Positions 4,350-64,000 of a stretch of DNA of 64,000 bases are shown piece after piece. Origin of the DNA: an uncultured Bdellovibrionales bacterium (GTDB lineage Bacteria > Patescibacteriota > Minisyncoccia > Moranbacterales > UBA1568); assembly GCA_964491155.1 (NCBI GenBank), contig CAZBFG010000001.1, positions 4,604 through 68,603 of the forward strand, written 5' to 3'. Each line of letters starts with the position of its first letter. Within the stretch, counting starts at the first letter, position 1. Under the pieces are notes generated by a model that ran no database searches, was not told where the DNA came from, and saw only the letters and a program-made list of their open reading frames with translations. Made by a program: the position numbers and the translations under genes.

Positions 4350-4862
4350 TCAGGTTCCCAGGGTGCTATGTTTCACTGTTTGCCTGATGATCGAGTCCCT
4401 CACTCGCTCAAAGTGCTGCCTGGAAAAGCTCCGAAGGACCACTCCGACTTCCAGCGGTGTTTGCAAGACGCTCACCGGTGGACGTAGTCCCTTGTCGCCA
4501 AACCACAAAGGAACAGACCCGCACTCAACCCGAAAGTTCGGGGTCTTCCGGTTTTGGAGCACCATAACCTCGCACTTTGCCAAGTGTTCCCGACTGTAAC
4601 CAACCGGCATGGGCACAAGATGCGGAGCAACCTCTTGTTGCAGATCGGCCATCAGCTTCCGCACCCGCTTCGGTTCTTTCCCACCCGGGATAACAAAATC
4701 CACCGGGACATAGATATCCTCTGCCACACCATCCTTGGGGACATACGTGACCGCCAAGTCCGTGGTAGCACCATGCGCGAAACTGCCAATGGCACCAACG
4801 GCCAAAATGGCCAGAGCGAGAATCGCCCAGCCGAGTACCCGCAGAAAAACACCATTCTTCAT
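4350..4862 (-). CDS. Hypothetical exported or membrane protein, in high-GC cassette 1
   Basis: N-terminal hydrophobic segment (WAILALAILAVGAIGSFAHG); the local GC is clearly higher than in the flanking genes; no recognisable domain. Confidence 0.5.
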   Translation of the reverse strand: MKNGVFLRVLGWAILALAILAVGAIGSFAHGATTDLAVTYVPKDGVAEDIYVPVDFVIPGGKEPKRVRKLMADLQQEVAPHLVPMPVGYSREHLAKCEVMVLQNRKTPNFRVECGSVPLWFGDKGLRPPVSVLQTPLEVGVVLRSFSRQHFERVRDSIIRQTVKHSTLGT

Positions 4863-4928
4863 GTCACCCTCCTCAGGGTTGGTTTTGAAACAACTGAACC
4901 ACTTAGAGGCGAGGCCTCTAAGTTGACC

Positions 4929-5933
4929 TTACACTACCTTGTTCCATTTTAGGAACCTTGCGATGTACATGTCAAACCAATGCGTACGAACCGTTGGTTC
5001 ATGTGCGTATTTTTCTTTCAGGTAGGCATAAGTTTTTTCCAAACCTACCTCCAAGCTCGTCATAGGATAAAAACCAAATTCTTCGTTGGCTCGACCGATG
5101 TCGAGCACGATTTTTTGCACATCAAACGGACGCTTTTCCAAACGCTTGATACGGGGCATCGACTGAGTAGTTTTTGATAACATCAGTACCAATTCAAAAA
5201 GAGCAACTCCTCGACCGCTCCCGACATTATAGGTCGAGTTCTTGTGCTGTTCGGAAAAATTTTCAGCAATAAAGCTCGTCACATCCTTCACATAAACATA
5301 GTCACGCACCGTGTTACCATACAAATCAAGCGGCTCGTGCTTCATCATATGTTTCATAAAGATCGGAATTGCCCCCTGAATACCATTGGGATCCTGACGT
5401 TCACCATAGGGATTAGCAATGCGATAAATAACAAATGATAATCCATGCTGCCGACGGTAAAAATGCAAATGCTCTTCAATAGCAAGTTTGGTCACGGCAT
5501 ATGGTGACATAGGACGAGCCTGTGTTGTCTCACTAGCTACTTCTTCCAGAGCATTACCATACACGGCACCACCAGATGAAGGATAGATAATTTTTTTCAC
5601 GCCATGTTTCACGCACAGATCAAGGAGCTGGAGTGTACTCTCCAGGTTAAGTTTGATTTCTTTCTGTGGATCATTGGCCGTCGAAGCGGGCGTGCTGAGT
5701 GAAACGAAATGAAAAACATAATCGACACCCTTAAGGGCACGTGACACGTGCCACTTATTAAGGAAATTGCCTTTGTAAAATTCAATTTTTCCCTTGAGAT
5801 GTTTCAAATTCTTGATCCGTCCTTTTTGGAAACGATCAAACACGCGGACATCGTAACCACGAGCCACAAGATCGTCTATCAGATGACTCCCGAGGAACCC
5901 ATCCCCGCCGAGTACCAGACATTTCTTTGCCAT
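4929..5933 (-). CDS. NAD-dependent epimerase/dehydratase (UDP-sugar 4-epimerase-like, SDR family)
   Basis: Begins MAKKCLVLGGDGFLGSHL (a GxxGxxG motif) and has a YxxxK region; the track start at 5939 is TTG and the ATG at 5933 is preferred. Confidence 0.8.
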   Translation of the reverse strand: MAKKCLVLGGDGFLGSHLIDDLVARGYDVRVFDRFQKGRIKNLKHLKGKIEFYKGNFLNKWHVSRALKGVDYVFHFVSLSTPASTANDPQKEIKLNLESTLQLLDLCVKHGVKKIIYPSSGGAVYGNALEEVASETTQARPMSPYAVTKLAIEEHLHFYRRQHGLSFVIYRIANPYGERQDPNGIQGAIPIFMKHMMKHEPLDLYGNTVRDYVYVKDVTSFIAENFSEQHKNSTYNVGSGRGVALFELVLMLSKTTQSMPRIKRLEKRPFDVQKIVLDIGRANEEFGFYPMTSLEVGLEKTYAYLKEKYAHEPTVRTHWFDMYIARFLKWNKVV

Positions 5934-8000: not shown

Positions 8001-9371
8001 ATGAACCATCCTATTATCGACAATACGCTCAAGAATTCCCTGCTGTGGATTTTTCTTGCTCTTATCGTAACTATTGGCATCGCCAGTTCTTTTTTTCTTC
8101 ACTTTTCACCATTATTACCCTTCCTTCTTGCTTTTGGAATCCTCTCTCTCATACTCGCCTTTCGAGCGCCTCTCCTCCTTCTTTTTGGTCTCATTATCGT
8201 CCGCATGTCACTCGACTACTCCTCGCAGTATGTCAGTGTTTCATTCTACAACATCACACTCTCCTTCTCACAGCTCCTCGGAGTCGGTATCGCGCTCTTG
8301 GGTGTCGTCATCCTCATTCTCAAACGCCAGCACCTGTTCCGCTACCCGCTCTTCTTTCCGTTTTTTCTCCTGCTCTTTTGGGGGAGCACGACGCTCTTGT
8401 ACTCATTGTCCCCCACGGATACCCTCCAGGAGCTACTCCGTATCTTTGACCTCTTTACGCTAGGCTTTCTCGCCTACGCCACCATCCGTGATACAGCAGA
8501 CTTCAAACATCTCCTCCAAGCCTTTTTTGTCTCGAGCATCCTTCCCATACTCTTTGGCCTCTACCAATACGCTTTTCACATCGGTCTCTCCGACCAAAAC
8601 GTTTCCATTCTCCGCATCTTTGGTACGTTTAGTCATCCCAACGTCTATTCACTCTACCTCTTTGCACTCATCGTTTTCGGAGGCCTCTACCTGGTCCTGT
8701 TTGCAGACAGCGGCATCCGACGTATCATCACAGCCGGCCTCGTCGCTATTTTCACTACCGTACTCGTCCTCACGTTTGCACGCGTGGCCTGGATAGCACT
8801 CTTCGTCTTTGTTTTCCTCATGGCACTCTTGCGCTATCGACTCCTCCTCTTTCCTCTCTTTCTCATTCCCTTTGTGCTCTATGTTTTTTCTCCCAGCTTT
8901 GCAGAACGCATCAACGAAAGTTTTCATTCCGATCCGGACAGTTCGCTCCTCTGGCGTCAAACACTCTGGGCAGATGTCACTCGTCATTCGCTCCAAGAAG
9001 ACCGCTTGCTTCTCGGTGCCGGTATGGATACGTTTCCCAAGGTCTCCGAAAGTGTCCGTGGTACCAATAACGGCCCCAACGATCCACACAATGATTTCGT
9101 CAAGTTCTTTGTGGAGGGCGGATTGGTTGGACTTGGCATCTTTTTCCTTTACCTCTTCTCACTCGGATATCTTCTTATAAAAAAGTATCGCCAAGCTCGT
9201 CCCGGCAGTGCCCTTCGCTTGGCCTTCGGCGTCATGTTTGTTTTCTTCCTCACGCTCGAACTCTCAGCCCTCACCGACAACATATTCAAAAACACTCCCG
9301 TCCAGTGGCTCTTCTTCACCGCCCTCGGCGCCCTCTTGGCTCTCTCGGAACAAAAAAAGAAGCTCGCTTGA
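8001..9371 (+). CDS. O-antigen ligase / Wzy-like polymerase family membrane protein
   Basis: 456 aa with about 10-12 TM helices and a periplasmic loop of Wzy_C type (FGTFSHPNVYSLYL...RVAWIALFVF). Confidence 0.7.
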   Translation: MNHPIIDNTLKNSLLWIFLALIVTIGIASSFFLHFSPLLPFLLAFGILSLILAFRAPLLLLFGLIIVRMSLDYSSQYVSVSFYNITLSFSQLLGVGIALLGVVILILKRQHLFRYPLFFPFFLLLFWGSTTLLYSLSPTDTLQELLRIFDLFTLGFLAYATIRDTADFKHLLQAFFVSSILPILFGLYQYAFHIGLSDQNVSILRIFGTFSHPNVYSLYLFALIVFGGLYLVLFADSGIRRIITAGLVAIFTTVLVLTFARVAWIALFVFVFLMALLRYRLLLFPLFLIPFVLYVFSPSFAERINESFHSDPDSSLLWRQTLWADVTRHSLQEDRLLLGAGMDTFPKVSESVRGTNNGPNDPHNDFVKFFVEGGLVGLGIFFLYLFSLGYLLIKKYRQARPGSALRLAFGVMFVFFLTLELSALTDNIFKNTPVQWLFFTALGALLALSEQKKKLA

Positions 9372-9391
9372 GCTTCAAAGTGGTATTCGGA

Positions 9392-9434
9392 TAAAAAAAG
9401 AAGGGGCCGGAACGCTGTTGCGTCCTGACCCCTT
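9392..9434 (-). terminator. Putative intrinsic terminator downstream of 9458-10279
   Basis: On the minus strand, a GC stem (aagggg...cccctt) is followed by ctttttttat. Confidence 0.4.
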
Positions 9435-9457
9435 TGTCGATACTGAAGTGTCTGGCG

Positions 9458-10279
9458 TCAGTTCCAGTAAGCCCGAGGGACTCGGATGGTGACGTACTTG
9501 CCACCCGTGTCGCCGACCCATTCGGACATCCACGACTCGCAGTTGTTGGCCGGGTAAGGGCTCCGGTTCTTCTCGCTCTTCGGATCCTCACAGTGCAGGT
9601 CGAACCCGCTGTAGGCATTGTCCATGCCGCGCCACCAGTCGAGGCCGACTTGCAGCCTGGCCGGACCAACGATCGCGACTTCCATCTCCACCAGATAGCG
9701 GGCGTCCCGTTTGTTGTCCAGGCGCCGCCCGGTCCAGTTGTGGAAAAGACGACGAGCGACTTTGCCCGGAAAGACATTGTAGACCCCGCCTTCGTAGTCG
9801 TAGACAAGGTCATTTTCGCCTGTTCCGTCGGTCTCGCCGTACCACTTCTCGACCTCATGACCGCGCGCAGTCATCTGGATCCGCGGAAAAATCCCACCTG
9901 CATCCACGTTTTCTTCACTCGTAGCATTGAACGTGATGGTCTGAAGCAGCCGTTTCGGACTGTTCTTGCCACGCTGTTCGTAGACTTTCCACGAGCGAAT
10001 CGAGACACGAGATGCGCCTCCTGTGTCACAGGGAACAGCGTTTACCACCGTGATGTGACTGATGGCCGCATGAAAGTTCGGTGGCGGCGTTTCCCGACCG
10101 GGATGGTGGTGCTCATTCTTCCAGATGGCACCCGACGGCACCAACGGTAGATTGTTCACTGGTGTCCCCGGAGCACATGGTTTGGTAACCGGGTTTTGTG
10201 CCCACAGTGACGATGAGCACAAGAGCCAGACGATGGCCAAAAAAAACCTCAATGCTTTCGTCACTTGGACTCCTTTCAT
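9458..10279 (-). CDS. Secreted hypothetical protein (high-GC island)
   Basis: Signal peptide MKGVQVTKALRFFLAIVWLLCSSSLWAQ; an AAGGAG ribosome-binding site; about 60% GC. Confidence 0.6.
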   Translation of the reverse strand: MKGVQVTKALRFFLAIVWLLCSSSLWAQNPVTKPCAPGTPVNNLPLVPSGAIWKNEHHHPGRETPPPNFHAAISHITVVNAVPCDTGGASRVSIRSWKVYEQRGKNSPKRLLQTITFNATSEENVDAGGIFPRIQMTARGHEVEKWYGETDGTGENDLVYDYEGGVYNVFPGKVARRLFHNWTGRRLDNKRDARYLVEMEVAIVGPARLQVGLDWWRGMDNAYSGFDLHCEDPKSEKNRSPYPANNCESWMSEWVGDTGGKYVTIRVPRAYWN

Positions 10280-10288
10280 CAGTTAAGT

Positions 10289-10741
10289 TCAGCAGCCCGA
10301 GGACTGCAGGTTCTTGACGTGCATCTCACCGTCGACTCCTTGGAGTCCGATGCGCACGGCGCCGTCCGTCATGTTCGGCGGGAAAACCCATTCCCGCTTG
10401 ACGGATCGGAACTCATCAGACGACCCCTGCTTGAAGTCCGGTGCCCACTTCTGTTTGCCACCGGCCATGATCTCGAAATCGAAATGAGGCCCATGGTAGG
10501 AAGCAGTCCCGCCCTTCACGCCCGTAGCCTTGTACTCGGCCGAGAGCGTGAACTTCTTGCCAGCGCAACTCGCCGGCAAGACATAGATCAGTCGCGGGAA
10601 GTCATCTCCACCGCTCTGACCACGAATGACGTACGTGTCACCGTTCTTAGTGACATCACCACCTTCCATCTTCCACACCACCTGGGCGGTGGCATTGACC
10701 GAAAAAAGAGCGGCCAAAAGCGCTAAAAACTTGGTTTGCAT
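10289..10741 (-). CDS. Small secreted hypothetical protein (high-GC island)
   Basis: Signal peptide MQTKFLALLAALFSVNATAQ; the track start at 10753 is TTG and the ATG at 10741 is preferred. Confidence 0.6.
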   Translation of the reverse strand: MQTKFLALLAALFSVNATAQVVWKMEGGDVTKNGDTYVIRGQSGGDDFPRLIYVLPASCAGKKFTLSAEYKATGVKGGTASYHGPHFDFEIMAGGKQKWAPDFKQGSSDEFRSVKREWVFPPNMTDGAVRIGLQGVDGEMHVKNLQSSGC

Positions 10742-10865
10742 GGTTTGCTCCAATTGAAAAGGACCAGAATTCGTGCGTTCGCATCACGCGAACAAAGAAG
10801 TATAGAATAAAATTCGCTTTCTGTCAATAAAGAGAAACTCGTTTGAGTTTCAGAAATATTTTGGA

Positions 10866-10910
10866 TAAAAAAAGAGGGGTTTCGCAGTACATCGTACTTT
10901 GAAACCCCTA
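10866..10910 (-). terminator. Intrinsic terminator after 10958-11608
   Basis: On the minus strand, aggggtttc...gaaacccct is followed by ctttttttat. Confidence 0.6.
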
Positions 10911-10957
10911 TTGTGTAACCGCGTCATTGACGCGGGACTTGTGGCGGCCTAGCCAGG

Positions 10958-11643: not shown

Positions 11644-11690
11644 TGCGTCTGTAAAATCAACTCACCCGAGTTGATAGATTCACAGACGCG
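11644..11690 (-). promoter_or_regulatory. Long imperfect hairpin in the 5' UTR of 10958-11608
   Basis: gcgtctgtgaatctatcaactc pairs with gagttgattttacagacgc (8 bp then 6 bp); it lies between the promoter and the ribosome-binding site. Confidence 0.4.
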
Positions 11691-11994: not shown

Positions 11995-13617
11995 TCAGTC
12001 GTCAGCGTCAGAGGGCGCGGTCTTCCACTGCTTCTGGGGACTATTCATCCCCTTAGGCAGAATGACCATGCCATCCTTGTCGAGTCGGCCACCGGCCTTT
12101 TCGATCGCGGCCGTGAATTGCGCCTTGCGCGCTTGTTCACGATGCACGTAGACCGTCTTGCGGATGTCCCAGCTCCAGCCGAAACCGAAGAGTGAACCGC
12201 CGTTCAACAGGTCATAGTTGCGACCGAGGCCTATGAAGAGCCGCTCTTCCTTATCGCTCCACTGGAAGCGCCAGTTGGCCGTTTCTGCCAGGCTCGGAGC
12301 CTCTTGGAACCAGCCGAGCGCGAACCAGAGCTTGGTACCGATCTTGTCATCCTCTTCCGAAAGGTCGAGGAGACCGATACGTCCACCCACGTTCACGACA
12401 TGACTGAGCCTGGAGTCCGGGTCGGCCAGTGGTTGACCAAAAACGGAGTGTTCGGCCTCACCTCCCGTCGGCTTGAAGGCCGAAACGAAGAGTTGGTACT
12501 TGAAGAAGGACTTCTCCCCCCTCAACTCGCGTGCGTAGTTGTTGTACGCGAGCGTGATACCACGAAGGTCGAATTGCCGTTGGCTCTTGTAAGCCGCTTG
12601 CTCGCCGTTCTCTTCCAACGTGGCCCACGGCAGCAGCTTGAGACCGAAGTCGTAGCCACCTTCGTAAGCACTGTACTTGTAGGCCGGCCCGTAACCACCG
12701 AGGTGACCACTGAAACCAAAGCCTGTATCAGTCTTGCCGTGCCAGCTGCTGAAAGTGCCGCCGATACCGAACGCGTGTTCGGCACCGGAACCTTCAATGA
12801 AGAGACCGTAGAGCGCTCCAGACACGAACGTCGATTGCGCTGTCCGATCGTACTCCTTGCCGCCCACCAGTTCCCAGTCCCAGCGACGCACTGCCTCTTC
12901 AGGCGGTACTTCTTTGGGTTCGGGTTCTGGTATAACTTCTGGCGTCGGTTCTGGCTCTTTCTGCGGCTGCGGTTCTGGTTCCGGCTGTGGCTCAGGCTGT
13001 GGTTCTGGTTCCGGCTGTGGCTCAGGCTGGGACGTCACCATGAAGGTGATGTTCCCACATGAGAGCATATCGGCCAGCGTCTTGCCGGTCGAGAGCTTCC
13101 ATGTCTCCATCGCTTCGGGTCGCCCACCTTGTTCTGGTGTGCAAACCCTGACGTCACGGAGAAACTTGATCGTACCATCTTTGGAACGGAATGGCATGGC
13201 TTTGAACACCATGTCACTAGATACTAGCTCACGAACTCCACGCTCGAGAGAGACCAGAGCTTTCGCCTCGACTTTCTCTTCTGCCGTCAGATCCGGATTG
13301 GCATCGATTGCCTCCAGCCGAAGCTTGAGAGAGCCATAACGATTCCACGGCGCCCTATTCAAGTTGATGCAGGCTTGGGGCTGCTTCGCTTCGACAGCTG
13401 TACCACGCTCCGGGAACCGGATGATGGCACCAGCCTTGATGACGTTGCAGTCGTCCAGTTGATTGAACAGGCAGAGCACCTGCCAATCATGACCGAACTT
13501 CTTGGCAATCGATCCGAGCGTCTCGCCGGGATTGATTTTGTGAGGCGGCGTTTGATCGCCAGCCCACGCCCCCACCACTCCAAAGAGCAGCAAGAGAACC
13601 ATATACCATTTCTTCAT
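11995..13617 (-). CDS. Secreted LysM-like domain protein with a PEPQ-repeat linker and a Gly/aromatic-rich C-terminal domain
   Basis: Signal peptide MKKWYMVLLLLFGVVGAWAG; a LysM-like segment (INPGETLGSIAKKFGHDWQVL...IKAGAIIRFP); the linker QPEPQPEPEPQPEPQPEPEPQPQKEPEP; a C-terminal ~300 aa rich in G/F/Y/W. Confidence 0.6.
   Translation of the reverse strand: MKKWYMVLLLLFGVVGAWAGDQTPPHKINPGETLGSIAKKFGHDWQVLCLFNQLDDCNVIKAGAIIRFPERGTAVEAKQPQACINLNRAPWNRYGSLKLRLEAIDANPDLTAEEKVEAKALVSLERGVRELVSSDMVFKAMPFRSKDGTIKFLRDVRVCTPEQGGRPEAMETWKLSTGKTLADMLSCGNITFMVTSQPEPQPEPEPQPEPQPEPEPQPQKEPEPTPEVIPEPEPKEVPPEEAVRRWDWELVGGKEYDRTAQSTFVSGALYGLFIEGSGAEHAFGIGGTFSSWHGKTDTGFGFSGHLGGYGPAYKYSAYEGGYDFGLKLLPWATLEENGEQAAYKSQRQFDLRGITLAYNNYARELRGEKSFFKYQLFVSAFKPTGGEAEHSVFGQPLADPDSRLSHVVNVGGRIGLLDLSEEDDKIGTKLWFALGWFQEAPSLAETANWRFQWSDKEERLFIGLGRNYDLLNGGSLFGFGWSWDIRKTVYVHREQARKAQFTAAIEKAGGRLDKDGMVILPKGMNSPQKQWKTAPSDADD
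12936..13034. repeat. Tandem 30-bp DNA repeat encoding the PE/PQ linker
   Basis: ggttctggttccggctgtggctcaggctgt appears in at least two perfect copies plus degenerate copies. Confidence 0.7.
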
Positions 13618-14543
13618 GGCAAACTCCTTGTCTGTAGGTTTCTGGGTGGGTCGCTCGGAAGCAACCCGGCTTGGGTTTCTTCCTTCACGGCGTCACCTTT
13701 CTTCCCGCATCCGTTGTTCGCCACAGATATGTTATGCGGCAACGACAGCACTGCGCCGACAATCATAAACGTCGCGCTGGGCACTGCCGAAGCACTACCG
13801 CATGTGACGAGTCTGTCGAGCTTATTCACGCCCTTTGTCAGGGCGCCAACATGAACGATGTCCGGCTGCGTCGAGAACACTTCCCCATCATCTCCCATCG
13901 GGAGAGGAATGGGGTAGCGTGCTTCCAGCCACACGAAGAACTTGCGTCCTGCGGGGTGGTCGCGCCGGAAATTCGAATACTCAGGAAATGGCGAGGGATG
14001 GGCGGTGAAGAACTGATTACTCAGCTCAAAGGCGCCATTCTCGATATTTACCAAAGCACCCTTGGTCGTCATGACTGTCTTGCCATCATTGAACCGGACG
14101 AGCCAGTAGCCCCGATTGTACTCCGCCACCCTTCCAGGAGGCAAGAGTACAAAAAGCTCTGTTTCGTCAGGATTCATGATGGTGTCAAACACTTCAACTC
14201 TTCCATCGACGTAGTAGGCGGTTCGCCAGACCGAACAGATGACTGGTCGAACTGACTTCCCAACCTTGTACGAGCGACTCGGGTCACGGATCTCACTGCG
14301 CCAGGCCTCAGGGAGAGGCTTGGGCAACTTGATCATGGCGACCGTGTAGCTGAAGGTCTTGGTAACATCACCACGTACTGATACGCAGCGCCACGGCAGT
14401 TGTACACCACCTTGATCGCCTTGCTTCACCTTCGTGGTCTCGATGTTGTAGCCAATATCCTCTCTGACCTCTTCGATCTTCCGATCGATACTGGCGCACC
14501 CCGTGAGGAGGGCCAGAGCGATCATACCAATGATACGCAACAT
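13614..14543 (-). CDS. Lipoprotein of unknown function, overlapping the downstream LysM gene by 4 nt
   Basis: Lipobox MLRIIGMIALALLTGCAS; a GGAG ribosome-binding site ahead of the ATG at 14543; the track start at 14609 is an upstream extension. Confidence 0.6.
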   Translation of the reverse strand: MLRIIGMIALALLTGCASIDRKIEEVREDIGYNIETTKVKQGDQGGVQLPWRCVSVRGDVTKTFSYTVAMIKLPKPLPEAWRSEIRDPSRSYKVGKSVRPVICSVWRTAYYVDGRVEVFDTIMNPDETELFVLLPPGRVAEYNRGYWLVRFNDGKTVMTTKGALVNIENGAFELSNQFFTAHPSPFPEYSNFRRDHPAGRKFFVWLEARYPIPLPMGDDGEVFSTQPDIVHVGALTKGVNKLDRLVTCGSASAVPSATFMIVGAVLSLPHNISVANNGCGKKGDAVKEETQAGLLPSDPPRNLQTRSLP

Positions 14544-14667
14544 GGATATCTCCTTGTGGGTTGCACCAAACAAACTAACTGAACACAAATTGGTAAGGAT
14601 CAAAAACAACAGATCCTAGGAAGAAAGCAGTGGTGACGATGACGCCGCACCGCTCTCTTCCCAGGAA

Positions 14668-14688
14668 CTTAGACATCAGATGTCTAAG
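14668..14688. promoter_or_regulatory. Perfect 21-bp palindrome CTTAGACATCaGATGTCTAAG, a candidate operator
   Basis: 10-bp arms with a 1-nt centre; it cannot form an RNA hairpin with a 1-nt loop, so a DNA-binding site is more likely; it lies about 125 nt upstream of the lipoprotein ATG. Confidence 0.45.
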
Positions 14689-14726
14689 TGCGGGATGACT
14701 CGGCGCTTTAGGAAAGCGCCCGTCAC

Positions 14727-15404
14727 TTAGGCCATTCGGTCATTCAAAGAAACAGTGTCATTGCGAGAAAAAGCAGAGTAGCGAGATTCGTATCTCACAA
14801 CAATAAAGAAAGCTGAGAGAAAGAGTCCGGCTAGAAAGGCGATGAAGACAGTCTTAATCACCTTGGTCAGACTCGGGCTCTGTTCGAGAATCGGACCAGA
14901 GAGGACACGGATCTCGACACTTTTTTCATCACCACCACGGAAGAGTGAGTTTTTTTCGATCAGTACCTGAGCGATACCGTCCATGATACGGGCGACATCA
15001 CGCTCACGTTCACCTTTGACAGTTACGCCGATGATGCCGAGTTCGAGATTTTTTTCGACCGCTACCATCTTGCTCCACTGTGCGAGACGATGCTGTTTGT
15101 CGAATGGCAAGAATTCTTTGTTCACTTTACCAGTCTCTACCAGTGCATCGATGAAACGATCGCTGTACACCGCCTCAGCAAGAATTTTTCCCAAGTACTC
15201 TGAAGATTTGAATTGGGTGTAAAAATCCTGATTGTTTGCATTGGTCTGCACCACCAAAAAATCCATTTTATTCTGAAATGGCTTTTCAGTCATGATAAGA
15301 CCGAAGAATGCAAGTGCGCCAAACAGCGCACCAAAAAGGATAAGTGTTCCCATCCGTGACCGCAATAAAGCGAAGATTTGCTGGTTTTCCATAATTTTTC
15401 TCAC
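14727..15404 (-). CDS. Wzz-like polysaccharide chain-length determinant family protein
   Basis: N-terminal and C-terminal TM helices flank a periplasmic helical domain (Wzz architecture); the track start at 15404 is GTG and an ATG alternative lies at 15390. Confidence 0.55.
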   Translation of the reverse strand: MRKIMENQQIFALLRSRMGTLILFGALFGALAFFGLIMTEKPFQNKMDFLVVQTNANNQDFYTQFKSSEYLGKILAEAVYSDRFIDALVETGKVNKEFLPFDKQHRLAQWSKMVAVEKNLELGIIGVTVKGERERDVARIMDGIAQVLIEKNSLFRGGDEKSVEIRVLSGPILEQSPSLTKVIKTVFIAFLAGLFLSAFFIVVRYESRYSAFSRNDTVSLNDRMA

Positions 15405-15420
15405 AATTTATAGACCTTAT

Positions 15421-15449
15421 ATACTACCAAAAAAATGACAAATTGTCAA
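15421..15449 (-). promoter_or_regulatory. Promoter TTGACAAT-N17-TGGTAGTAT (extended -10)
   Basis: The minus strand reads ttgacaatttgtcatttttttggtagtat; the greA promoter is nearly identical. Confidence 0.5.
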
Positions 15450-15475: not shown

Positions 15476-15508
15476 GCTAAAAACCCCTTAAACAAGGGGT
15501 TTTATGGG
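15476..15508 (-). terminator. Intrinsic (bidirectional-looking) terminator
   Basis: aaaacccctt-aaac-aaggggtttt forms a stem with T-runs on the minus strand. Confidence 0.5.
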
Positions 15509-18955: not shown

Positions 18956-20278
18956 CTACTGCTTTGGCGCAATAACATCTTTACCAACAAACGGCCGGAG
19001 CACCTCGGGAATCGTCACCGAACCGTCAGCTTGCTGGTAATTTTCGAGGATCGAGATAAAGATGCGTGGGCTTGGGAGAGCGGTGTTATTGAGCATATAG
19101 ACATGTTTTTTGTCGCCGTTCTCGTCTTTGTACTTCACATTGAGCCGGCGAGCCTGCCAGTCGAGGAAATTCGAGGCTGATCCTGTCTCGCCATAGCGAT
19201 TCATCCCGGGCATCCAAGCCTCAAGATCAAAGGCGCGGTACTTGCCGGCGCTCATGTCACCACTACAGATCTGAATCTTGCGATACGGCAGCCCGAGCTC
19301 TTGGTGCATTTCTTCTGAAACAGCAATCATCTCTTCCTGAAGTTTGTTGGCCAGTTCCATATCAGCCGGACACAGTATGACCTGCTCCACTTTCATAAAC
19401 TCATGCACCCGGTACATACCCTTGGTATCTTTGCCGTAACTTCCGATTTCACTCCGGTAGCACTGACTGAAGCCAGCCATGCGCAGCGGCAGATTCTTTT
19501 CTTCTAAAACCTCATCGCTATAGTACGAAAGCAGTGATGGCTCGGCCGTTCCGACCAAGAATTTTGATTCTTTTGAAATGCTGCCATCTACTTCTTTATC
19601 GGATGTCGCTACCTGATAGATTTCATCAATCTCGCCATTGTATTCGCCACCCTTGAAGTAGCCACTCCCGAAAAGCGGAAAGCTTTTTACCAAGGTTGGC
19701 GGGATCATCGGTGTATACCCTTTGGAAACCAGCTTTTGCAATGCATAGAACATCAACCCCATCACCAGGAGCGTCCCTTCATTTTTCAAATAGTAGCCGC
19801 GGTATCCAGACACTTTGGCTCCGCGCTCCAAATCCAAAATATCGAGCATCTTCCCCAGCTCCATATGTGTCCGTGGTGCAAACTCAAACTGCTTGATATC
19901 TCCATACTTTCCCACCTCAACGTTCTCCGCATCACTTTTCCCACGCGGCGTATCCGGAGAAATAATATTTGGCACTTGTACCATGAGCGCATCAAACTCT
20001 TTCTTCACCACAGCAAAGCGCGGCTCAAGTTCATCAATTTTTACTTTGATCTCCTTGCCTTTGGCGATAATTTCAGCGCGCTCTTCATCTGTTTTTGCCT
20101 GCTGAATAAGATCATTGATATCATTCTTGAGCGACTTTAGTTCTTCCAGTTCCTGAAGCAGCGCAATGCGCTCACCATCTTTGGCGAGTAAAGCATCAAT
20201 ATCAAGCGACAAATTCTTTGCCGTCACTGCTTCTTTGATAGCGGCCGTATTAGTACGAATGTATTGGATATCTAACAT
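18956..20278 (-). CDS. serS: Seryl-tRNA synthetase
   Basis: Begins MLDIQYIRTN, with an N-terminal coiled coil and class II core motifs; the track start at 20308 is a GTG extension. Confidence 0.9.
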   Translation of the reverse strand: MLDIQYIRTNTAAIKEAVTAKNLSLDIDALLAKDGERIALLQELEELKSLKNDINDLIQQAKTDEERAEIIAKGKEIKVKIDELEPRFAVVKKEFDALMVQVPNIISPDTPRGKSDAENVEVGKYGDIKQFEFAPRTHMELGKMLDILDLERGAKVSGYRGYYLKNEGTLLVMGLMFYALQKLVSKGYTPMIPPTLVKSFPLFGSGYFKGGEYNGEIDEIYQVATSDKEVDGSISKESKFLVGTAEPSLLSYYSDEVLEEKNLPLRMAGFSQCYRSEIGSYGKDTKGMYRVHEFMKVEQVILCPADMELANKLQEEMIAVSEEMHQELGLPYRKIQICSGDMSAGKYRAFDLEAWMPGMNRYGETGSASNFLDWQARRLNVKYKDENGDKKHVYMLNNTALPSPRIFISILENYQQADGSVTIPEVLRPFVGKDVIAPKQ

Positions 20279-20337
20279 AGGAACGGCTTCATTAGCTTTT
20301 AGCTTCACTAGCTTGTTAGTCTTCTAATTATTTAGGG

Positions 20338-28634: not shown

Positions 28635-29447
28635 CTACTTCCCCTGAAAATAGTCATTGACAGCATACACCAACTGGCTGGGTGTTATTTCGGTCTTGAG
28701 AAAAGCCTGCGTCACAATACCGGCATCTTTCAACACCTTGACGCTTTCGTCTTCCATGGAAACTGATGCCGACAACAGAAATATAGGAACATTTTTCCCT
28801 TGTTCTTCGTCTCGCAATTTCTTGATGAACTCACGGCCATCCATATTGGGCATCATAACATCAGTAATGATGAGATCAAAAACTTCACTCAGTGCCGCTG
28901 CCAAACCCTGCACTCCATCTTGTTTGGCAACTACTTCATATCCTTCACTCTGCAAGCGCTTACTAAACATCTCAACAAAAACCGGCTCATCCTCAATCAA
29001 AAGAATCTTTTTCTCCAAATGTGCTCTCTCTCCCTGTGGTCGAGCATCATTGGCAGAATTTTTATCCTGCTCATTAAATTGTCGTAAAAATCGTTCAATT
29101 TCACTGACTACCTCAGAAGGTGAAAACTCTGTCTTGGAAATAAAGCCGTTGGCACCCAGTTTCAATACTTGTTCCCGATCTTCGGCACTACTCAAATTGC
29201 TAAACACTACCACTTTCAAAGTTTGGTCGTATTCCTTGTTATGACGCAGCTCTCGTAGGACTTCGATACCACTCATTTCTGGCAATACCAAATCAAGCAG
29301 AATCAAATCAAATTTTTGCTCCTGGACATACTTCAAAACAGCTTTGCCCGAAGTGGCATTGACCGTCTCAAAACCGGACGACTCCAATTTCTTTTGATAA
29401 ATCTCGGCAATAAACGGGTCATCTTCGACGAGGAGAATTTTTGCCAT
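28635..29447 (-). CDS. Response regulator with two tandem receiver domains and no output domain
   Basis: REC1 begins MAKILLVEDDP...D54-like; REC2 reads KKILLIEDEPVFVEMF...; no helix-turn-helix. Confidence 0.8.
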   Translation of the reverse strand: MAKILLVEDDPFIAEIYQKKLESSGFETVNATSGKAVLKYVQEQKFDLILLDLVLPEMSGIEVLRELRHNKEYDQTLKVVVFSNLSSAEDREQVLKLGANGFISKTEFSPSEVVSEIERFLRQFNEQDKNSANDARPQGERAHLEKKILLIEDEPVFVEMFSKRLQSEGYEVVAKQDGVQGLAAALSEVFDLIITDVMMPNMDGREFIKKLRDEEQGKNVPIFLLSASVSMEDESVKVLKDAGIVTQAFLKTEITPSQLVYAVNDYFQGK

Positions 29448-29507
29448 AGGTCATGTTGACATTTAAATCAAATGTAGGATATCAAAAAATTGGCTTATAA
29501 TCAACAT

Positions 29508-31208
29508 TTACAGACTAGCTGCCTTTCCAAGCGTCTCCACTGGGAGCTTGATGATAAACGTCGATCCCTTCCCTGAGCCTTCTGATTCGACAGAGAGCAA
29601 TCCCCCATGAGCTTCCACAAAGTTTTTGCCCACATAAAGACCAAGTCCCGTGCCGGAAACATCCAACTTCATAGTCTCCGTGCTTCTCGTGAATTTCTCA
29701 AAAAGCCGTTTACTCTCCTTTGGATCAACACCAATACCCGTATCCTTTATCCTGACAGAGACACACTTAGTATCTCCTTCAACAGTCACCGTGACACCGC
29801 CTTCTTTAGTATATTTGAGAGCATTATCGATCAAATTGGAAACCACTTCACGAATCTTATTCACGTCCAGTGTCAATTTTGGCAGAGACTTGTTCGGCAG
29901 CTTGATCTTGAGTGATAATTTTTTCTCTTTGGCCATGATCGTGAACATATCGACGATATCAGCCACAATCGGTTCCAGTTGGGCTTCGACAAAATTGTAC
30001 TGCACCCGACCGGATTCAATACGAGAAATACTAAGGAGATCCTCGACCAACTGACCCATGCGATTGTTCACTATATACACTTTGTTCAAAACATCCTGGA
30101 GTGTCATGGGAACTTTGCCATATGAACCCTCAAGTATGAGCGAAACATAACCCTTGATAGCTGTCAGTGGCGTCCTGAGCTGATGCGAAGCGATCGAAAT
30201 AAATTCCGATTTTGCCGCATCCAAACGTTTCAATTCGTTGTTTGCAATGGCCAACTCCTGCGTCAACGCCTGTAATTCCTCCTTACGCTTCACTTCTTCC
30301 TTAACAGATCGAATGAGTATAATTCCAAAGATAGAAGCCAGGATAAAGGTAGTGGCAACCAGTATGTAACTCGTCATCTCCCGGATAAAGAACAGCTGTG
30401 ATCCGATCAAAGATATAAGCCCCACCACCAATGCCTGAGCCCCAATAAGTTTTAGATTAAAAGCCTGATACTTCACAATCAAATAGGTAAGAAACCCAAG
30501 AAAAACCGGCATTCCAAAAAGTCCATACTGAAGAATTTTCCAATTATCTGGATCATCGGGATTGATAACCGAAGCAATACTCCCAGCTATATTCGCCCCG
30601 GAAAAAGAAAGAAGGAATAATACCGAACCAAGAACAAGATATACGGCTTGAACTCGAGCAGAATCTCGCGTTTTAAATATTTTCCAAATTCCATATCCAA
30701 GTAAAGTCAGAAAAAATACCACCTCAAGGAAATAAAAATAGTTAACAAGCACTCCTTGCTGCGCTTCACAAAGAGTCGCATTAAAACCAGTTATATTGTA
30801 TTGTGTGGGCAAAAGAACAAGAAAAGGAACAAAAAGCAAAGCGAATACTGCTTTATATCGCATTGCCAAATCTCGCTTTTCAATGAAAACATAGACGAAA
30901 TACACTGTGAGACAACTCACCATGTTTTCAAGAAGATTAATTATCGACCAAAAAAACATCGTTTTCCGACTGTCAGGACTACTCCAGAGAATCAAATCAA
31001 AGGCAGACCAAAGAGCGAAAAGAACTGTCACCAAAAAAAACAGCCTACTCGAGAGATCTTTTTTATTCTTAAAGAAAATAAACAGTCCCAAAAGCAAAGT
31101 GACAATCGCCGTTGGAATGTGAGAATAATACAAAATCACATTACCACTCAAAATAGAGTCCATTATTGCCTTGCAATATTCCGAGTTTGTAACAAGATTG
31201 AAATTCAT
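29508..31208 (-). CDS. Sensor histidine kinase with an N-terminal ~8-TM sensor domain
   Basis: Polytopic N-terminus, a coiled coil, the HisKA motif (SHQLRTPLTAIKGY) and a HATPase_c domain (N, G1, G2 boxes). Confidence 0.8.
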   Translation of the reverse strand: MNFNLVTNSEYCKAIMDSILSGNVILYYSHIPTAIVTLLLGLFIFFKNKKDLSSRLFFLVTVLFALWSAFDLILWSSPDSRKTMFFWSIINLLENMVSCLTVYFVYVFIEKRDLAMRYKAVFALLFVPFLVLLPTQYNITGFNATLCEAQQGVLVNYFYFLEVVFFLTLLGYGIWKIFKTRDSARVQAVYLVLGSVLFLLSFSGANIAGSIASVINPDDPDNWKILQYGLFGMPVFLGFLTYLIVKYQAFNLKLIGAQALVVGLISLIGSQLFFIREMTSYILVATTFILASIFGIILIRSVKEEVKRKEELQALTQELAIANNELKRLDAAKSEFISIASHQLRTPLTAIKGYVSLILEGSYGKVPMTLQDVLNKVYIVNNRMGQLVEDLLSISRIESGRVQYNFVEAQLEPIVADIVDMFTIMAKEKKLSLKIKLPNKSLPKLTLDVNKIREVVSNLIDNALKYTKEGGVTVTVEGDTKCVSVRIKDTGIGVDPKESKRLFEKFTRSTETMKLDVSGTGLGLYVGKNFVEAHGGLLSVESEGSGKGSTFIIKLPVETLGKAASL

Positions 31209-47859: not shown

Positions 47860-49551
47860 CTATTCTTCCAGCTTCTTCTTGGGTGATACCAACAGCTTTG
47901 GGTGACGTTCCATCCAGTCTCCGGCCAAATACGTCGTCGTGATGCGCACCAGTACCACCGCAGTAAACAATGAGAGGAGGACACCAAGCGCCAAGATGAC
48001 CGCAAACCCCTTCACGAATCCTGTTCCTAGACCGATAAGTATGACTGTGGTGATCAGTGTCGAAACATGACCGTCCCGAATACTTGGCCAAGCCCGCCTG
48101 TAGCCTTCCTTGATAGAGCGGATGACCCCTTTGCCATAGGACAACTCTTCTCGTGTGCGTTCAAAGATAAGCACGTTGGCATCAACCGCGATACCAATCG
48201 AAAGGATAAAGCCTGCGATACCCGAGAGTGTGACCGTGATAGCAAACGGGGTAAACACCGAAAGCTTGAAAATCGTCAAAAGCATCGCTGTATAAAGAAG
48301 CAACGCAAACACGGCTACGAGTCCCAACAACCGATAGTAGAAAATCATAAACACCGCGACCGCCGCCAAACCAACAATTCCCGCAAACAAACTCTGCTTT
48401 AGTGCCACTTCTCCGAGAGAAGCATCGACACTCTGCTGACCGACCAGCGTGATCGGTACTGGGAGTGCTCCCTCATTCAAACGCTTCACCAGGTTATTGG
48501 CCTCCTGCATGGTAAAGTCTCCTGTGATAACAGCCTGCCCGTTCGGTATCTCATTTTGCACCGTTGGCTGACTGATGATTTCGTCATCGAGGAAGATAGC
48601 CACCGGCTTACCGATATTGCGTTTGGTTATTTCCGAAAAAAGAGTCGTCCCCTCATCGTCAAATTGCAGTGCGATCTGCGGCGACCCGACACCCTGCGTC
48701 TGATAGTCCACATAGGCGTTTTTCAAGTGTTTGCCAGAAAGTCCCGTTGCCTTGTAAGCAAGCTTGGGGAAATCCTGGGCGGCGTACTTACGAAACAGCA
48801 CATGCGCCACTTTGACTTCACGCTCATCACCCTCACCGCGCTCATCGAGTTTTTTCATGATATGCCACCCAAAATCCGTTTCTACTAGAGCAGGATGCAC
48901 GCTCCCTTTGGAAAAATTCGGATCAAATGTCACGGCATCAAACTCACCAACGTAATATCCCTTCTTGGCAAAATCATACTCCCCACCATTGTCTTTGGAT
49001 CCCGGGTCTTCACTGAATTGTGTTGCCAGGACAGCAAATTCTTCTCCTTCTTTGGCGCGCGCCAAAATACTTTCTGCCTTGCCACGGTTGGAATCATTCA
49101 GTTGATCGAGCTGTCCCTGCTCTTCCGGAGTGATGTTGCCATCTGAAGATTCACGAAATTCCAAAAACGGCGTTTCTTTGATCATCTTTTTCGCCTGATC
49201 AATATCCTTGATCCCCGGGAGCTCTACGATGATACGGTGTTCCGTACCCGAGCGAGACAGCTGCACGAGCGGCTCTCCCACACCAAAGGCATTGACGCGT
49301 CGTTCGATGACCGCTTCCGCTGCCACGAGCGCATCACTCACCTTTTCACTCTCAATTTGCGACACATCAGCCTTGTACTCGAGGTGGATACCGCCCTGCA
49401 AATCCAGTCCTTTGTTCACCTGCATGGCATCGAACACGTCAAAAACCGGCGGGATAAATTTCACCGCCTGCGGGTACGAAATAACTCCACAGACCAAGCC
49501 AAGAAGGAGTACCGCTATGAATTGATATCGGATTTTTGCCTGTTGTTTCAT
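47860..49551 (-). CDS. secD: Protein-export membrane protein SecD
   Basis: N-terminal TM helix, a large periplasmic domain (LDLQGGIHLEY) and a C-terminal 5-TM bundle. Confidence 0.85.
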   Translation of the reverse strand: MKQQAKIRYQFIAVLLLGLVCGVISYPQAVKFIPPVFDVFDAMQVNKGLDLQGGIHLEYKADVSQIESEKVSDALVAAEAVIERRVNAFGVGEPLVQLSRSGTEHRIIVELPGIKDIDQAKKMIKETPFLEFRESSDGNITPEEQGQLDQLNDSNRGKAESILARAKEGEEFAVLATQFSEDPGSKDNGGEYDFAKKGYYVGEFDAVTFDPNFSKGSVHPALVETDFGWHIMKKLDERGEGDEREVKVAHVLFRKYAAQDFPKLAYKATGLSGKHLKNAYVDYQTQGVGSPQIALQFDDEGTTLFSEITKRNIGKPVAIFLDDEIISQPTVQNEIPNGQAVITGDFTMQEANNLVKRLNEGALPVPITLVGQQSVDASLGEVALKQSLFAGIVGLAAVAVFMIFYYRLLGLVAVFALLLYTAMLLTIFKLSVFTPFAITVTLSGIAGFILSIGIAVDANVLIFERTREELSYGKGVIRSIKEGYRRAWPSIRDGHVSTLITTVILIGLGTGFVKGFAVILALGVLLSLFTAVVLVRITTTYLAGDWMERHPKLLVSPKKKLEE

Positions 49552-52225: not shown

Positions 52226-52394
52226 TTGAGTAGCTTCCTAGCTGCTTAGCTTTTAGCTTCTTAGTTCTTAGAAGCCGGACTTCTAAGTAATATACGACTT
52301 CACGAACAGATGATTTACTATACAGTAAATCCTGAAAAAAGCAAGAGTTGGTGCATAAAAATACCTATTTCAAGCCATAATTTCCTAAAAAGTA

Positions 52395-52423
52395 TTGACA
52401 GGAATAGTTTTTAGGTGTATAAT
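52395..52423 (+). promoter_or_regulatory. Consensus sigma70 promoter TTGACA-17-TATAAT
   Basis: ttgaca at 52395-52400, a 17-nt spacer, and tataat at 52418-52423, about 70 nt upstream of the 52496 start. Confidence 0.65.
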
Positions 52424-63839: not shown

Positions 63840-64000
63840 AAAACTTCAATAATAAGCTCTCCAATTACACGTCCATTCTATAATAAAAACAAAAAATTAG
63901 CAATCATCGTATGAGAGTGCTAATTCTACGTAATCTACGGGAGCAATATTTCCTGAACCCGTGGTACACGATCTAACTGTACCCACCCAAAAAAGAGTGC

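What the first reader, a model, noticed from the sequence alone, without database searches (positions are those of the whole stretch)
14668..14688. Perfect 21-bp palindrome CTTAGACATCaGATGTCTAAG upstream of the island lipoprotein operon
This is a 10+1+10 perfect palindrome lying about 125 nt upstream of the lipoprotein ATG. An RNA hairpin with a 1-nt loop is impossible, so it is more likely a binding site for a dimeric DNA-binding protein. A related half-site architecture, CTTAGAAG-ccgga-CTTCTAAG, occurs at 52274-52294 upstream of the sigma70 promoter at 52395. This suggests a shared CTTAG-containing operator family.
Basis: seen in the sequence. Interest (0 to 1): 0.5.

Follow-up and report, generated by a model that had tools for sequence, protein, structure and literature searches.

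The report
Intergenic RNA stem-loop, not an operator
The perfect palindrome is real, but related genomes keep a hairpin of changing sequence at this spot, so it is most likely an ordinary RNA stem-loop between two genes, not a docking site for a DNA-binding regulator.

Summary
The palindrome CTTAGACATCaGATGTCTAAG is at 14668-14688, extends to 23 bp (14667-14689), and lies 125 nt upstream of the lipoprotein ATG (14543, - strand). Far fewer than one is expected by chance.

The window is from a Candidatus Moraniibacteriota (CPR) contig. Eighteen related loci give 11 distinct orthologous sequences. All have a short hairpin at the same place, 0-2 nt before a conserved 52-nt hairpin (P2), but its sequence differs. 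In the 7-bp foot, 63 of 63 cells pair and 6 of 7 pairs show compensatory changes. G·U pairs occur only on the gene-sense (-) strand.

Site 1 is absent from relatives L010, L012 and L037. Site 3 is absent even from relatives with 96-97% identical ABC-F protein, two of them with a 100% identical promoter. Its 3' arm belongs to a GCTAAG repeat array.

On the sense strand all three fold as a 9-10-bp stem plus triloop. None has a U-tract, and no DNA-binding regulator gene was seen in the window.

Verdict: a sense-strand RNA stem-loop in an untranslated region, probably affecting mRNA processing or stability (inferred). The shared CTTAGA foot is real and unexplained. Interest is low to moderate.

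The parts
14667..14689 (-). P1: the reported palindrome. On the sense (-) strand it reads ACUUAGACAU-CUG-AUGUCUAAGU, a 10-bp stem with a triloop.
   Evidence: -10.6 kcal/mol, z = -5.0. A hairpin is kept at this position in all related loci with compensatory changes.
14702..14720 (-). P0: the hairpin GGCGCUUU-CCU-AAAGCGCC, starting 7 nt after the stop codon of the 221-aa gene. It is not conserved: absent in L033, and different hairpins sit there in L007 and L041.
14615..14665 (-). P2: a conserved long hairpin starting 1 nt after P1. It has a 17-bp basal stem with three persistent G·U pairs, a covarying apical stem and a GUYAUC loop.
   Evidence: 91-96% identical in relatives whose neighbouring 221-aa protein is only about 76% identical. 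RNAalifold result. The covariance model scores 68-83 bits on the sense strand and 38-51 bits on the antisense strand, with one copy per locus. There is no Rfam family.
14597..14616 (-). P3: a small hairpin GGAUC-UGUUGUUUUU-GAUCC that overlaps the last 2 nt of P2. A U-rich or UUUCGAUU stretch follows, then the TTACCAAT/TTAACAAT motif.
   Evidence: read from the alignment; weak.
4901..4923 (-). Site 1: ACUUAGAGGC-CUC-GCCUCUAAGU. It lies between the epimerase stop (4929) and the ATG of a 170-aa secreted protein (4862).
   Evidence: -15.0 kcal/mol. Kept in L033 with one compensatory pair and one A·C mismatch. Absent in L010, L012 and L037, and replaced by other hairpins in L007 and L008.
52267..52287 (-). 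Site 3: CUUAGAAGU-CCG-GCUUCUAAG (the ninth pair is U·G). It lies 42 nt upstream of the ABC-F ATG (52225). Its 3' arm is the first unit of a CTAAG/GCTAAG repeat array.
   Evidence: Absent in L043, L053, L054, L046 and L048.
4946..4975 (-). Promoter-like site TTGACA-18-TAAAAT inside the 3' end of the epimerase gene. It would place site 1 at about +17 to +39 of a transcript.
   Evidence: Its conservation in relatives may only reflect coding constraint.
52317..52344 (-). Promoter-like site TTGCTT-16-TATAGT for the ABC-F gene. It would place site 3 at about +23 to +43.
   Evidence: Read. It is 100% conserved in L053 and L054, and appears as TTGACT-16-TAGAGT in L043, L046 and L048.
14727..15392 (-). 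Upstream gene: a 221-aa membrane protein with no Pfam match. It has its own promoter-like site at 15421-15449, and a canonical terminator at 15480-15503 lies upstream of that.
13614..14543 (-). Downstream gene: a 309-aa lipoprotein with no Pfam match. In relatives this position holds various unrelated lipoprotein genes.

Best explanation
The palindrome is the DNA image of an RNA stem-loop (P1) made on the - strand, the sense strand of the neighbouring genes. It lies in the untranslated spacer between the 221-aa membrane-protein gene and the lipoprotein gene. That spacer folds as three consecutive hairpins (P0, P1, P2), and P1 directly abuts the conserved hairpin P2.

Selection acts mainly on the ability to pair, not on the letters. 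The two look-alike palindromes at 4902-4922 and 52267-52287 are the same kind of object: a 9-10-bp stem with a triloop, 38-42 nt upstream of a start codon, in an intercistronic spacer or 5'UTR.

The most likely role is inferred, not shown. The hairpin would act as a cis-acting barrier or processing element for the mRNA. It could protect the 3' end of the upstream message or the 5' end of the downstream message from exonucleases, possibly after cleavage in or near the long P2 duplex, and so tune expression of the downstream secreted or lipoprotein gene.

Shown here: the positional and structural conservation, the strand, and the gain and loss of sites 1 and 3. Inferred: that the region is transcribed, and the effect on stability or processing.
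For: 1. In 18 loci from related Moraniibacteriota genomes and metagenomes (11 distinct sequences), a hairpin always ends 0-2 nt before P2, but its sequence differs. Examples: ACTTAGACAT (window), ACTTGGAGGT, GACTTGG, ATACTTGTGGC, GGCTTGAG, ACTGAGAG, ACTGAGC, CCCAGCACCA.
2. In a foot-anchored alignment of 9 distinct stems, 63 of 63 cells form standard pairs. Six of 7 pairs have changes on both sides (16 cells), against 0 of 500 shuffles, and sliding the register destroys the pairing.
3. Strand: the G·U pairs in P1 make the sense fold more stable than the antisense fold in L008 (-13.0 vs -2.4), L042 (-7.7 vs -4.0) and L012 (-7.9 vs -6.7). P2 has three G·U pairs that alternate with A-U or G-C, and its model scores about 35 bits higher on the sense strand.
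4. The only difference between the window and L041, which is 79% identical overall, is the central base. That fits a loop position.
5. The spacer folds as P0-P1-P2 at -75.4 kcal/mol, against -49.5 ± 4.2 for shuffles (z = -6.2).
6. On the sense strand all three window members share one geometry, a 9-10-bp stem with a C-initial triloop (CUC, CUG, CCG).
7. There is no U-tract after any of them, whereas a canonical terminator exists nearby at 15480-15503.
Against: - There are no transcript data, so transcription through the sites and any effect on RNA stability are inferred.
- The pair-count alignment was hand-built from hairpins predicted in each sequence, so it leans towards pairing.
- Pure structural selection does not explain why three hairpins in this genome share exactly the foot CTTAGA/TCTAAG and the same length. 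It also does not explain why the P1 stem is 100% identical in L041 despite 79% overall identity.
- The L033 ortholog of site 1 has an A·C mismatch on the sense strand, which would be G·U on the antisense strand.
- Predicted promoters in the window are not generally followed by stronger folds (mean -10.0 vs -9.7 kcal/mol for background).
Confidence: 0.62

Rival explanations
1. One reading: CTTAGA-N9-TCTAAG is a double-stranded DNA operator for a dimeric regulator specific to this lineage, which represses the downstream genes.
For: There are three exact copies of both half-sites at identical spacing, and the hexamer is otherwise rare. Two sites lie at about +17 to +43 of promoter-like sequences, a possible roadblock position. 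The P1 stem is 100% identical in L041 at 79% background identity, which suggests some sequence constraint.
Against: - Orthologous sites keep the pairing, not the half-site.
- G·U pairs in relatives would be mismatches in any DNA cruciform, and they point to RNA.
- The interiors differ but are perfectly self-complementary.
- Half-site centres are 15 bp apart, about 1.4 helical turns, so they sit on different faces of the helix.
- Site 3 is absent where the promoter is 100% identical.
- No degenerate sites exist.
- No HTH or other DNA-binding gene was seen among the annotated genes of the window.
- The genuine operator in the window, CIRCE, looks different.
Confidence: 0.1
2. The palindromes are non-adaptive or selfish. 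They would be young inverted duplications made by template switching, or a small palindromic element that spreads in the manner of REP elements. They would land in permissive untranslated spacers and have no function of their own.
For: Sites 1 and 3 are present or absent among close relatives. The 3' arm of site 3 is a unit of a pre-existing GCTAAG repeat array, so its 5' arm looks like an inverted copy. The perfect complementarity suggests recent origin. Other lineages carry unrelated hairpins at the site-1 position. P1 types are distributed as a mosaic among lineages.
Against: The site-2 hairpin is kept at one position in every lineage examined, through complete sequence turnover, which indicates selection. 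Only 3 copies were found in about 83 kb of this contig, and none elsewhere in about 600 kb of relatives. There are no shared flanks or target-site duplications, and no RAYT or transposase gene was seen. Copy-and-paste spread would give identical interiors.
Confidence: 0.18
3. The hairpin is an intrinsic terminator or attenuator hairpin for the upstream gene.
For: It lies 38 nt after the stop codon of the 221-aa gene. At site 1 the hairpin starts 6 nt after the epimerase stop.
Against: No U-tract follows any of the three (UUCCUGGG, GGUUCAG, AACUAAG). The scan did not call them, and canonical A-tract/stem/U-tract terminators do exist in this genome. Site 3 has no upstream gene on the same strand. 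If anything terminates here it is P2, which is followed by a U-rich stretch.
Confidence: 0.05

Closest known systems
Intercistronic and 5'-UTR stabiliser stem-loops of bacterial mRNAs, for example the ompA 5' hairpin and the REP hairpins in the malE-malF spacer of E. coli (from my own knowledge)
   Same: A short, stable stem-loop without a U-tract, in an untranslated spacer upstream of a gene. Structure is conserved more than sequence. Presence varies between relatives.
   Different: No transcript-end or half-life data exist here. This organism is an uncultured CPR bacterium. Three copies share a specific 6-bp foot. P1 is always fused to a second, sequence-conserved hairpin (P2).
CIRCE/HrcA operator (TTAGCACTC-N9-GAGTGCTAA)
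   Same: An inverted repeat with a 9-nt spacer that starts TTAG and ends CTAA, upstream of a gene. A real CIRCE is present in this window at 63897-63923, upstream of dnaJ.
   Different: CIRCE is 27 bp long with 9-bp conserved arms and a non-palindromic spacer, and it precedes chaperone genes. The CTTAGA sites are 21 bp long, share only 6 bp per arm, have palindromic interiors, and precede secreted-protein, lipoprotein and ABC-F genes.
REP/BIME elements mobilised by RAYT transposases
   Same: Short intergenic palindromes that form RNA hairpins, in several copies that share the base of the stem.
   Different: REP elements occur in tens to hundreds of near-identical copies with a conserved GTAG head and an associated RAYT gene. 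Here 3 copies with unrelated interiors were found in 83 kb, with no RAYT gene seen.
Rho-independent terminators
   Same: A perfect stem-loop shortly after a stop codon.
   Different: There is no U-tract, the stem is A/U-rich, and one copy has no upstream gene on its strand.

Membership tests
Operator of a dimeric DNA-binding repressor | Half-site sequence is conserved at the orthologous promoter in related genomes | tested here: not met
   There are 11 distinct orthologous sequences. The foot varies (ACTTAG, ACTTGG, GCTTGA, ACTGAG, CCCAGC) while pairing is kept. Site 3 is absent although the promoter is 100% identical.
Operator of a dimeric DNA-binding repressor | Several sites in one genome share half-sites and spacing | tested here: met
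   There are three exact CTTAGA-N9-TCTAAG sites in 64 kb, against about 0.002 expected. Only about 83 kb of the genome could be read.
Operator of a dimeric DNA-binding repressor | A cognate regulator gene is nearby or co-occurs | tested here: not met
   No HTH or other DNA-binding Pfam domain appears in the gene calls covering the window. The only regulator-like genes are a histidine kinase and a double-receiver response regulator without an output domain. The rest of the genome was not available.
Operator of a dimeric DNA-binding repressor | The site overlaps or directly follows a promoter | tested here: inconclusive
   Promoter-like hexamers lie 17-23 nt upstream of sites 1 and 3, and none lies upstream of site 2. 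These are consensus matches only.
Structured cis-acting RNA hairpin | Base pairing is maintained by compensatory changes across relatives | tested here: met
   63 of 63 cells pair and 6 of 7 pairs have double changes, with 0 of 500 shuffles as high. Caveat: the alignment was hand-anchored.
Structured cis-acting RNA hairpin | Strand asymmetry: G·U pairs on one strand only | tested here: met
   The sense fold is more stable than the antisense fold in L008, L042 and L012. P2 has G·U pairs, and its model scores 68-83 bits on the sense strand against 38-51 on the antisense strand. One exception is an A·C mismatch on the sense strand in the L033 ortholog of site 1.
Structured cis-acting RNA hairpin | The region is transcribed, with an effect on RNA ends or stability | not testable with these tools
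   No transcriptome data are available.
Rho-independent terminator | A G+C-rich stem followed directly by a U-tract | tested here: not met
   The tails are UUCCUGGG, GGUUCAGU and AACUAAGA. The scan does not call these sites.
CIRCE (HrcA operator) | Match to TTAGCACTC-N9-GAGTGCTAA, upstream of chaperone genes | tested here: not met
   The only match within 3 mismatches is 63897-63923, upstream of dnaJ. The three CTTAGA sites do not match.
REP/RAYT element | Many near-identical copies, a GTAG head and a RAYT gene | tested here: not met
   There are 3 copies with different interiors in 83 kb, no GTAG head, and no transposase in the gene calls. The genome-wide copy number could not be tested.
Any Rfam family | Score at or above the gathering threshold | tested here: not met
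   Only two tRNAs reach threshold in the window. The best hit in 14400-14850 is IMES-1 at 25.6 bits (gathering score 81), and it is on the wrong strand.

The most novel reading that the evidence does not exclude
The 21-nt hairpins with a CUUAGA/UCUAAG foot, three variable pairs and a C-initial triloop may be recognition sites for a lineage-specific trans-acting factor. That factor could be an RNA-binding, processing or antitermination protein, or less likely a DNA-binding one. Together with the conserved P2 hairpin, which is in no Rfam family, they would form a new leader that controls the exchangeable surface-lipoprotein genes of Moraniibacteriota.
Probability: 0.15. Interest if true: 0.55.

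Novelty: new member of a known kind. Interest (0 to 1): 0.3.

Why it matters
As an operator family with an unknown regulator, this would have been a lead into gene regulation in an uncultured CPR bacterium. The evidence instead points to a common kind of feature, an untranslated-region RNA stem-loop, so the palindrome itself adds little.

Two by-products may be worth more.

- The hairpin always abuts a sequence-conserved structured RNA element (P2) that is in no Rfam family. P2 sits at the border between conserved housekeeping genes and a slot holding different lipoprotein genes in different relatives.
- Three hairpins in one genome share a foot that structure alone does not explain.

Both are cheap to test in complete MAGs and metatranscriptomes.

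Tried and rejected
- **Rfam.** At gathering threshold over the whole window, only two tRNAs were found. With E-value up to 10 on 14400-14850, the best hit was a weak IMES-1 match on the + strand (25.6 vs 81 bits). I rejected it because the G·U pairs of the long hairpin work only on the - strand.
- **More family members.** I searched about 600 kb from relatives and 19 kb more of the same contig. Only orthologs turned up: L033 for site 1 and L041 for site 2.
- **Viral contigs.** Interiors were mostly non-palindromic, with extension counts of 74/31/12/3/1 for 0-4 pairs, close to random. The motif is therefore not a widespread hairpin type.
- **Foot variants in the window.** CTTGG...CCAAG variants gave only weak coding-region matches.
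- **Leader paralogy.** I tested whether sites 1 and 2 share a paralogous leader through GTTCAGTT(A)GTTT. The match is not above chance (20 found vs 18 expected at up to 3 mismatches).
- **5'UTR hairpins after promoters.** I found no general enrichment.
- **Mobile-element reading.** I saw no target duplications or shared flanks at the insertion borders.
- **attC or integron reading.** P1 and P2 occur once per locus, and no integrase was seen.
- **Literature.** A search for Moranbacteria RNA motifs found no papers.
- **Divergent 129-aa gene next to site 3.** It has no Pfam match and no obvious HTH.

Full report
**Observation**

The sequence at 14668-14688 is exactly CTTAGACATCAGATGTCTAAG, and the dyad extends to 23 bp at 14667-14689. 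It lies between the stop codon of a 221-aa membrane-protein gene (14727, - strand) and the ATG of a 309-aa lipoprotein gene (14543, - strand). The stated 125 nt to the ATG is therefore correct.

A pattern search found three 21-bp palindromes of the form CTTAGA-N9-TCTAAG:
- 14668-14688, the reported site.
- 52267-52287, CTTAGAAG-CCGGA-CTTCTAAG.

CTTAGA occurs 4 times and TCTAAG 5 times in the window, and three of each lie in these sites. No copies with 1 or 2 mismatches exist. The three are among only 12 perfect hairpins (stem of at least 8, loop of at most 8) in 64 kb.

**Source and context**

The window is positions 9866-73865 of a 117-kb metagenomic contig, ERZ27247837 k141_762857. Relatives found through the adjacent RseP protein are Candidatus Moraniibacteriota, which belong to the CPR/Patescibacteria. 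Nearly all genes are on the - strand.

- Site 2 lies in the spacer between the 221-aa gene and the lipoprotein gene.
- Site 1 lies between an epimerase gene (stop at 4929) and a 170-aa secreted-protein gene (ATG at 4862).
- Site 3 lies 42 nt upstream of an ABC-F gene (ATG at 52225), in a divergent intergenic region.

**Orthologous comparison of site 2, the key result**

I examined 12 genome loci and 6 metagenome loci. All have a short hairpin (P1) ending 0-2 nt before a conserved long hairpin (P2). P2 reads CCUGGGAAGAGAGCGG...GUYAUC...CUGCUUUCUUCCUAGGA and folds at about -36 kcal/mol. The P1 sequence differs between lineages:

| Locus | P1 (5' arm - loop - 3' arm) |
|---|---|
| window | ACTTAGACATC-T-GATGTCTAAGT |
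| L041 | same stem, central base C |
| L007 | TACTTGGAGGT-TTG-ACCTCCAAGTA |
| L038 | CCTTGGAGGT-TCA-ACCTCCAAGG |
| L013 | GACTTGG-GTCT-CCAAGTC |
| L008 | ATACTTGTGGC-TTTCTG-GTCATAAGTAT |
| L015 | GGCTTGAG-TTCG-CTCAAGCC |
| L012 group | ACTGAGAG-CTTCAACC-CTCTTGGT |
| L042 | ACTGAGC-TAG-GCTCGGT |
| L033, L025 | CCCAGCACCA-GAKYTT-TGGTGCTGGG |

I built a foot-anchored alignment of nine distinct stems. All 63 cells form standard pairs, and 6 of 7 pairs have changes on both sides (16 cells). None of 500 shuffles scored as high, and sliding the register removes the pairing. The caveat is that I built this alignment by hand from the hairpins predicted in each sequence, so it leans towards pairing.

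L033 is about 90% identical to the window in DNA and has identical flanks, yet its whole P1 stem is replaced.

**Strand**

G·U pairs in P1 of L008, L012 and L042 make the gene-sense fold more stable than the antisense fold, for example -13.0 vs -2.4 kcal/mol in L008. P2 has three persistent G·U pairs that alternate with A-U or G-C in some relatives. A covariance model of P2 scores 68-83 bits on the sense strand and 38-51 bits on the antisense strand.

The - strand spacer folds as three consecutive hairpins, P0, P1 and P2, at -75.4 kcal/mol. Shuffles give -49.5 ± 4.2 kcal/mol, so z = -6.2.

On the sense strand all three window palindromes have the same geometry, a 9-10-bp stem plus a triloop. 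The loops are CUC, CUG and CCG, and the folds are -15.0, -10.6 and -9.5 kcal/mol.

**Sites 1 and 3 in relatives**

Site 1:
- L033 keeps it, with one compensatory G-C to A-U change and one A·C mismatch on the sense strand.
- L010, L012 and L037 lack it.
- L008 and L007 have unrelated hairpins at that position.

Site 3:
- It is absent from every relative examined. These include L043, L053 and L054, whose ABC-F protein is 96-97% identical; L053 and L054 also carry a 100% identical TTGCTT-16-TATAGT promoter-like sequence.
- All relatives carry a variable number of short (A)GCTAAG repeats in this leader.
- The 3' arm of the window hairpin is the first unit of that array, so the 5' arm looks like an inverted duplication of a repeat unit.

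These two hairpins were therefore gained recently.

**Against an operator**

- Half-sites are not conserved at orthologous positions.
- The interiors differ between sites, yet each is perfectly self-complementary.
- Half-site centres are 15 bp apart, which places them on different faces of the helix.
- No degenerate sites exist.
- Gene calls with Pfam annotation across the window show no DNA-binding regulator.
- A genuine operator in the same window, CIRCE at 63897-63923 upstream of dnaJ, has conserved 9-bp arms and a non-palindromic spacer.

Some features remain compatible with sequence-specific recognition. These are the identical 6-bp foot and length of three sites, the promoter-like hexamers 17-23 nt upstream of sites 1 and 3, and the 100% identity of the P1 stem in L041 although that locus is only 79% identical overall.

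**Against a terminator**

No U-tract follows any of the three sites. The consensus scan does not call them, and canonical terminators do exist here, for example at 15480-15503.

**Against a mobile element**

I found 3 copies in about 83 kb of the contig and none in about 600 kb of relatives apart from the orthologs. The interiors are unrelated, there are no shared flanks or target duplications, and no transposase was seen.

In viral contigs the same pattern mostly has non-palindromic interiors.

**Best explanation**

The palindrome encodes a sense-strand RNA stem-loop in an untranslated spacer, maintained for its pairing. Its most likely role is as a processing or stability element for the flanking messages, possibly acting with the long P2 duplex. 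That role is inferred by analogy with intercistronic and 5'-terminal stabiliser hairpins (my own knowledge), and I could not test it. I put confidence in the RNA stem-loop reading at about 0.6.

The rivals, with my confidence in each:
- A non-functional or selfish young palindrome: 0.18.
- An operator: 0.10.
- A terminator: 0.05.

**Novelty**

This is a new instance of a common kind of feature. Two things are less ordinary. The first is the shared CUUAGA foot, which remains unexplained. The second is the neighbouring P2 element. It is conserved in sequence and structure in one Moraniibacteriota subclade, occurs once per locus, and is in no Rfam family. It sits at the border between conserved genes and a slot occupied by different lipoprotein genes in different relatives.

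Noticed in passing
window 14612-14666 (- strand); L007-L015, L025, L033, L037-L042: A conserved hairpin of about 52 nt (P2) with a 17-bp stem, three persistent G·U pairs and a covarying apical stem with a GUYAUC loop. It is 91-96% identical in relatives whose neighbouring protein is about 76% identical. It occurs once per locus, has no Rfam match, and is absent from more distant relatives. This is a candidate new structured RNA, possibly a terminator or an RNase III-type site.
   Followed up: partly
downstream of P2: window 13614-14543 and the equivalent positions in L007-L015, L025, L041, L042: The gene after the conserved leader always encodes a lipoprotein, with a signal peptide ending in GC. 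The proteins are often unrelated between relatives, which suggests an exchangeable lipoprotein slot behind a conserved leader that also carries a TTAACAAT/TTGACAAT motif.
   Followed up: partly
L041 1033-1053; L033 1180-1200; L025: P1 types are distributed as a mosaic. L041 is 79% identical to the window but has the same P1 stem. L033 is 90% identical but shares a different P1 with L025. This suggests recombination or an old polymorphism within the spacer.
   Followed up: no
window 52226-52266; L043, L046, L048, L053, L054 upstream of ABC-F: The 5'UTR of the ABC-F gene carries a variable number of short tandem repeats of the form (A)GCTAAG or GAAGCTA, with an 8-9-nt unit. The copy number differs between close relatives.
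   Followed up: partly
window 63897-63923: A CIRCE element, TTAGCAATC-ATCGTATGA-GAGTGCTAA, with 1 mismatch to the consensus, lies 58 nt upstream of the dnaJ ATG (63839, - strand). This implies HrcA-type heat-shock control in this CPR bacterium.
   Followed up: no
whole window: CTTAG and CTAAG (both CTNAG) are depleted: 15 and 10 occurrences against about 39-40 expected from dinucleotide content. Possible causes are restriction-site avoidance or stop-codon content.
   Followed up: no
window 9360-10897: The 273-aa and 150-aa genes of the G+C-rich region are absent from the roughly 90%-identical relative L033. The region at 9-14.7 kb (55-59% G+C, against 43-48% in the flanks) is variable.
   Followed up: partly
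L007 about 20200-20290 (downstream of the epimerase): The hairpin CCCCTGGAAAG-ttgaat-CTTCCAGGGG, followed by AATTGTTGTTTTTCC, resembles the foot and tail of P2. This suggests a small family of related hairpins upstream of secreted-protein genes.
   Followed up: no
window 49051-49066; 5736-5752; 10919-10935; 11656-11675; 52312-52331: Other perfect palindromes are present: TTTGGCGCGCGCCAAA (no loop, inside a coding region), GGCACGTGaCACGTGCC, CCGCGTCAtTGACGCGG, ATCAACTC-ACCC-GAGTTGAT and GATTTACT-ATAC-AGTAAATC. The last one overlaps the predicted -10 of the ABC-F promoter.
   Followed up: no
window 14561-14752 (+ strand): A full-length but far sub-threshold match to the Rfam IMES-1 motif (25.6 bits, gathering score 81). 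I judged it spurious because the pairing favours the - strand.
   Followed up: yes
window about 28635-31208 (- strand): A histidine kinase is followed by a response regulator that has two receiver domains and no recognisable output domain.
   Followed up: no
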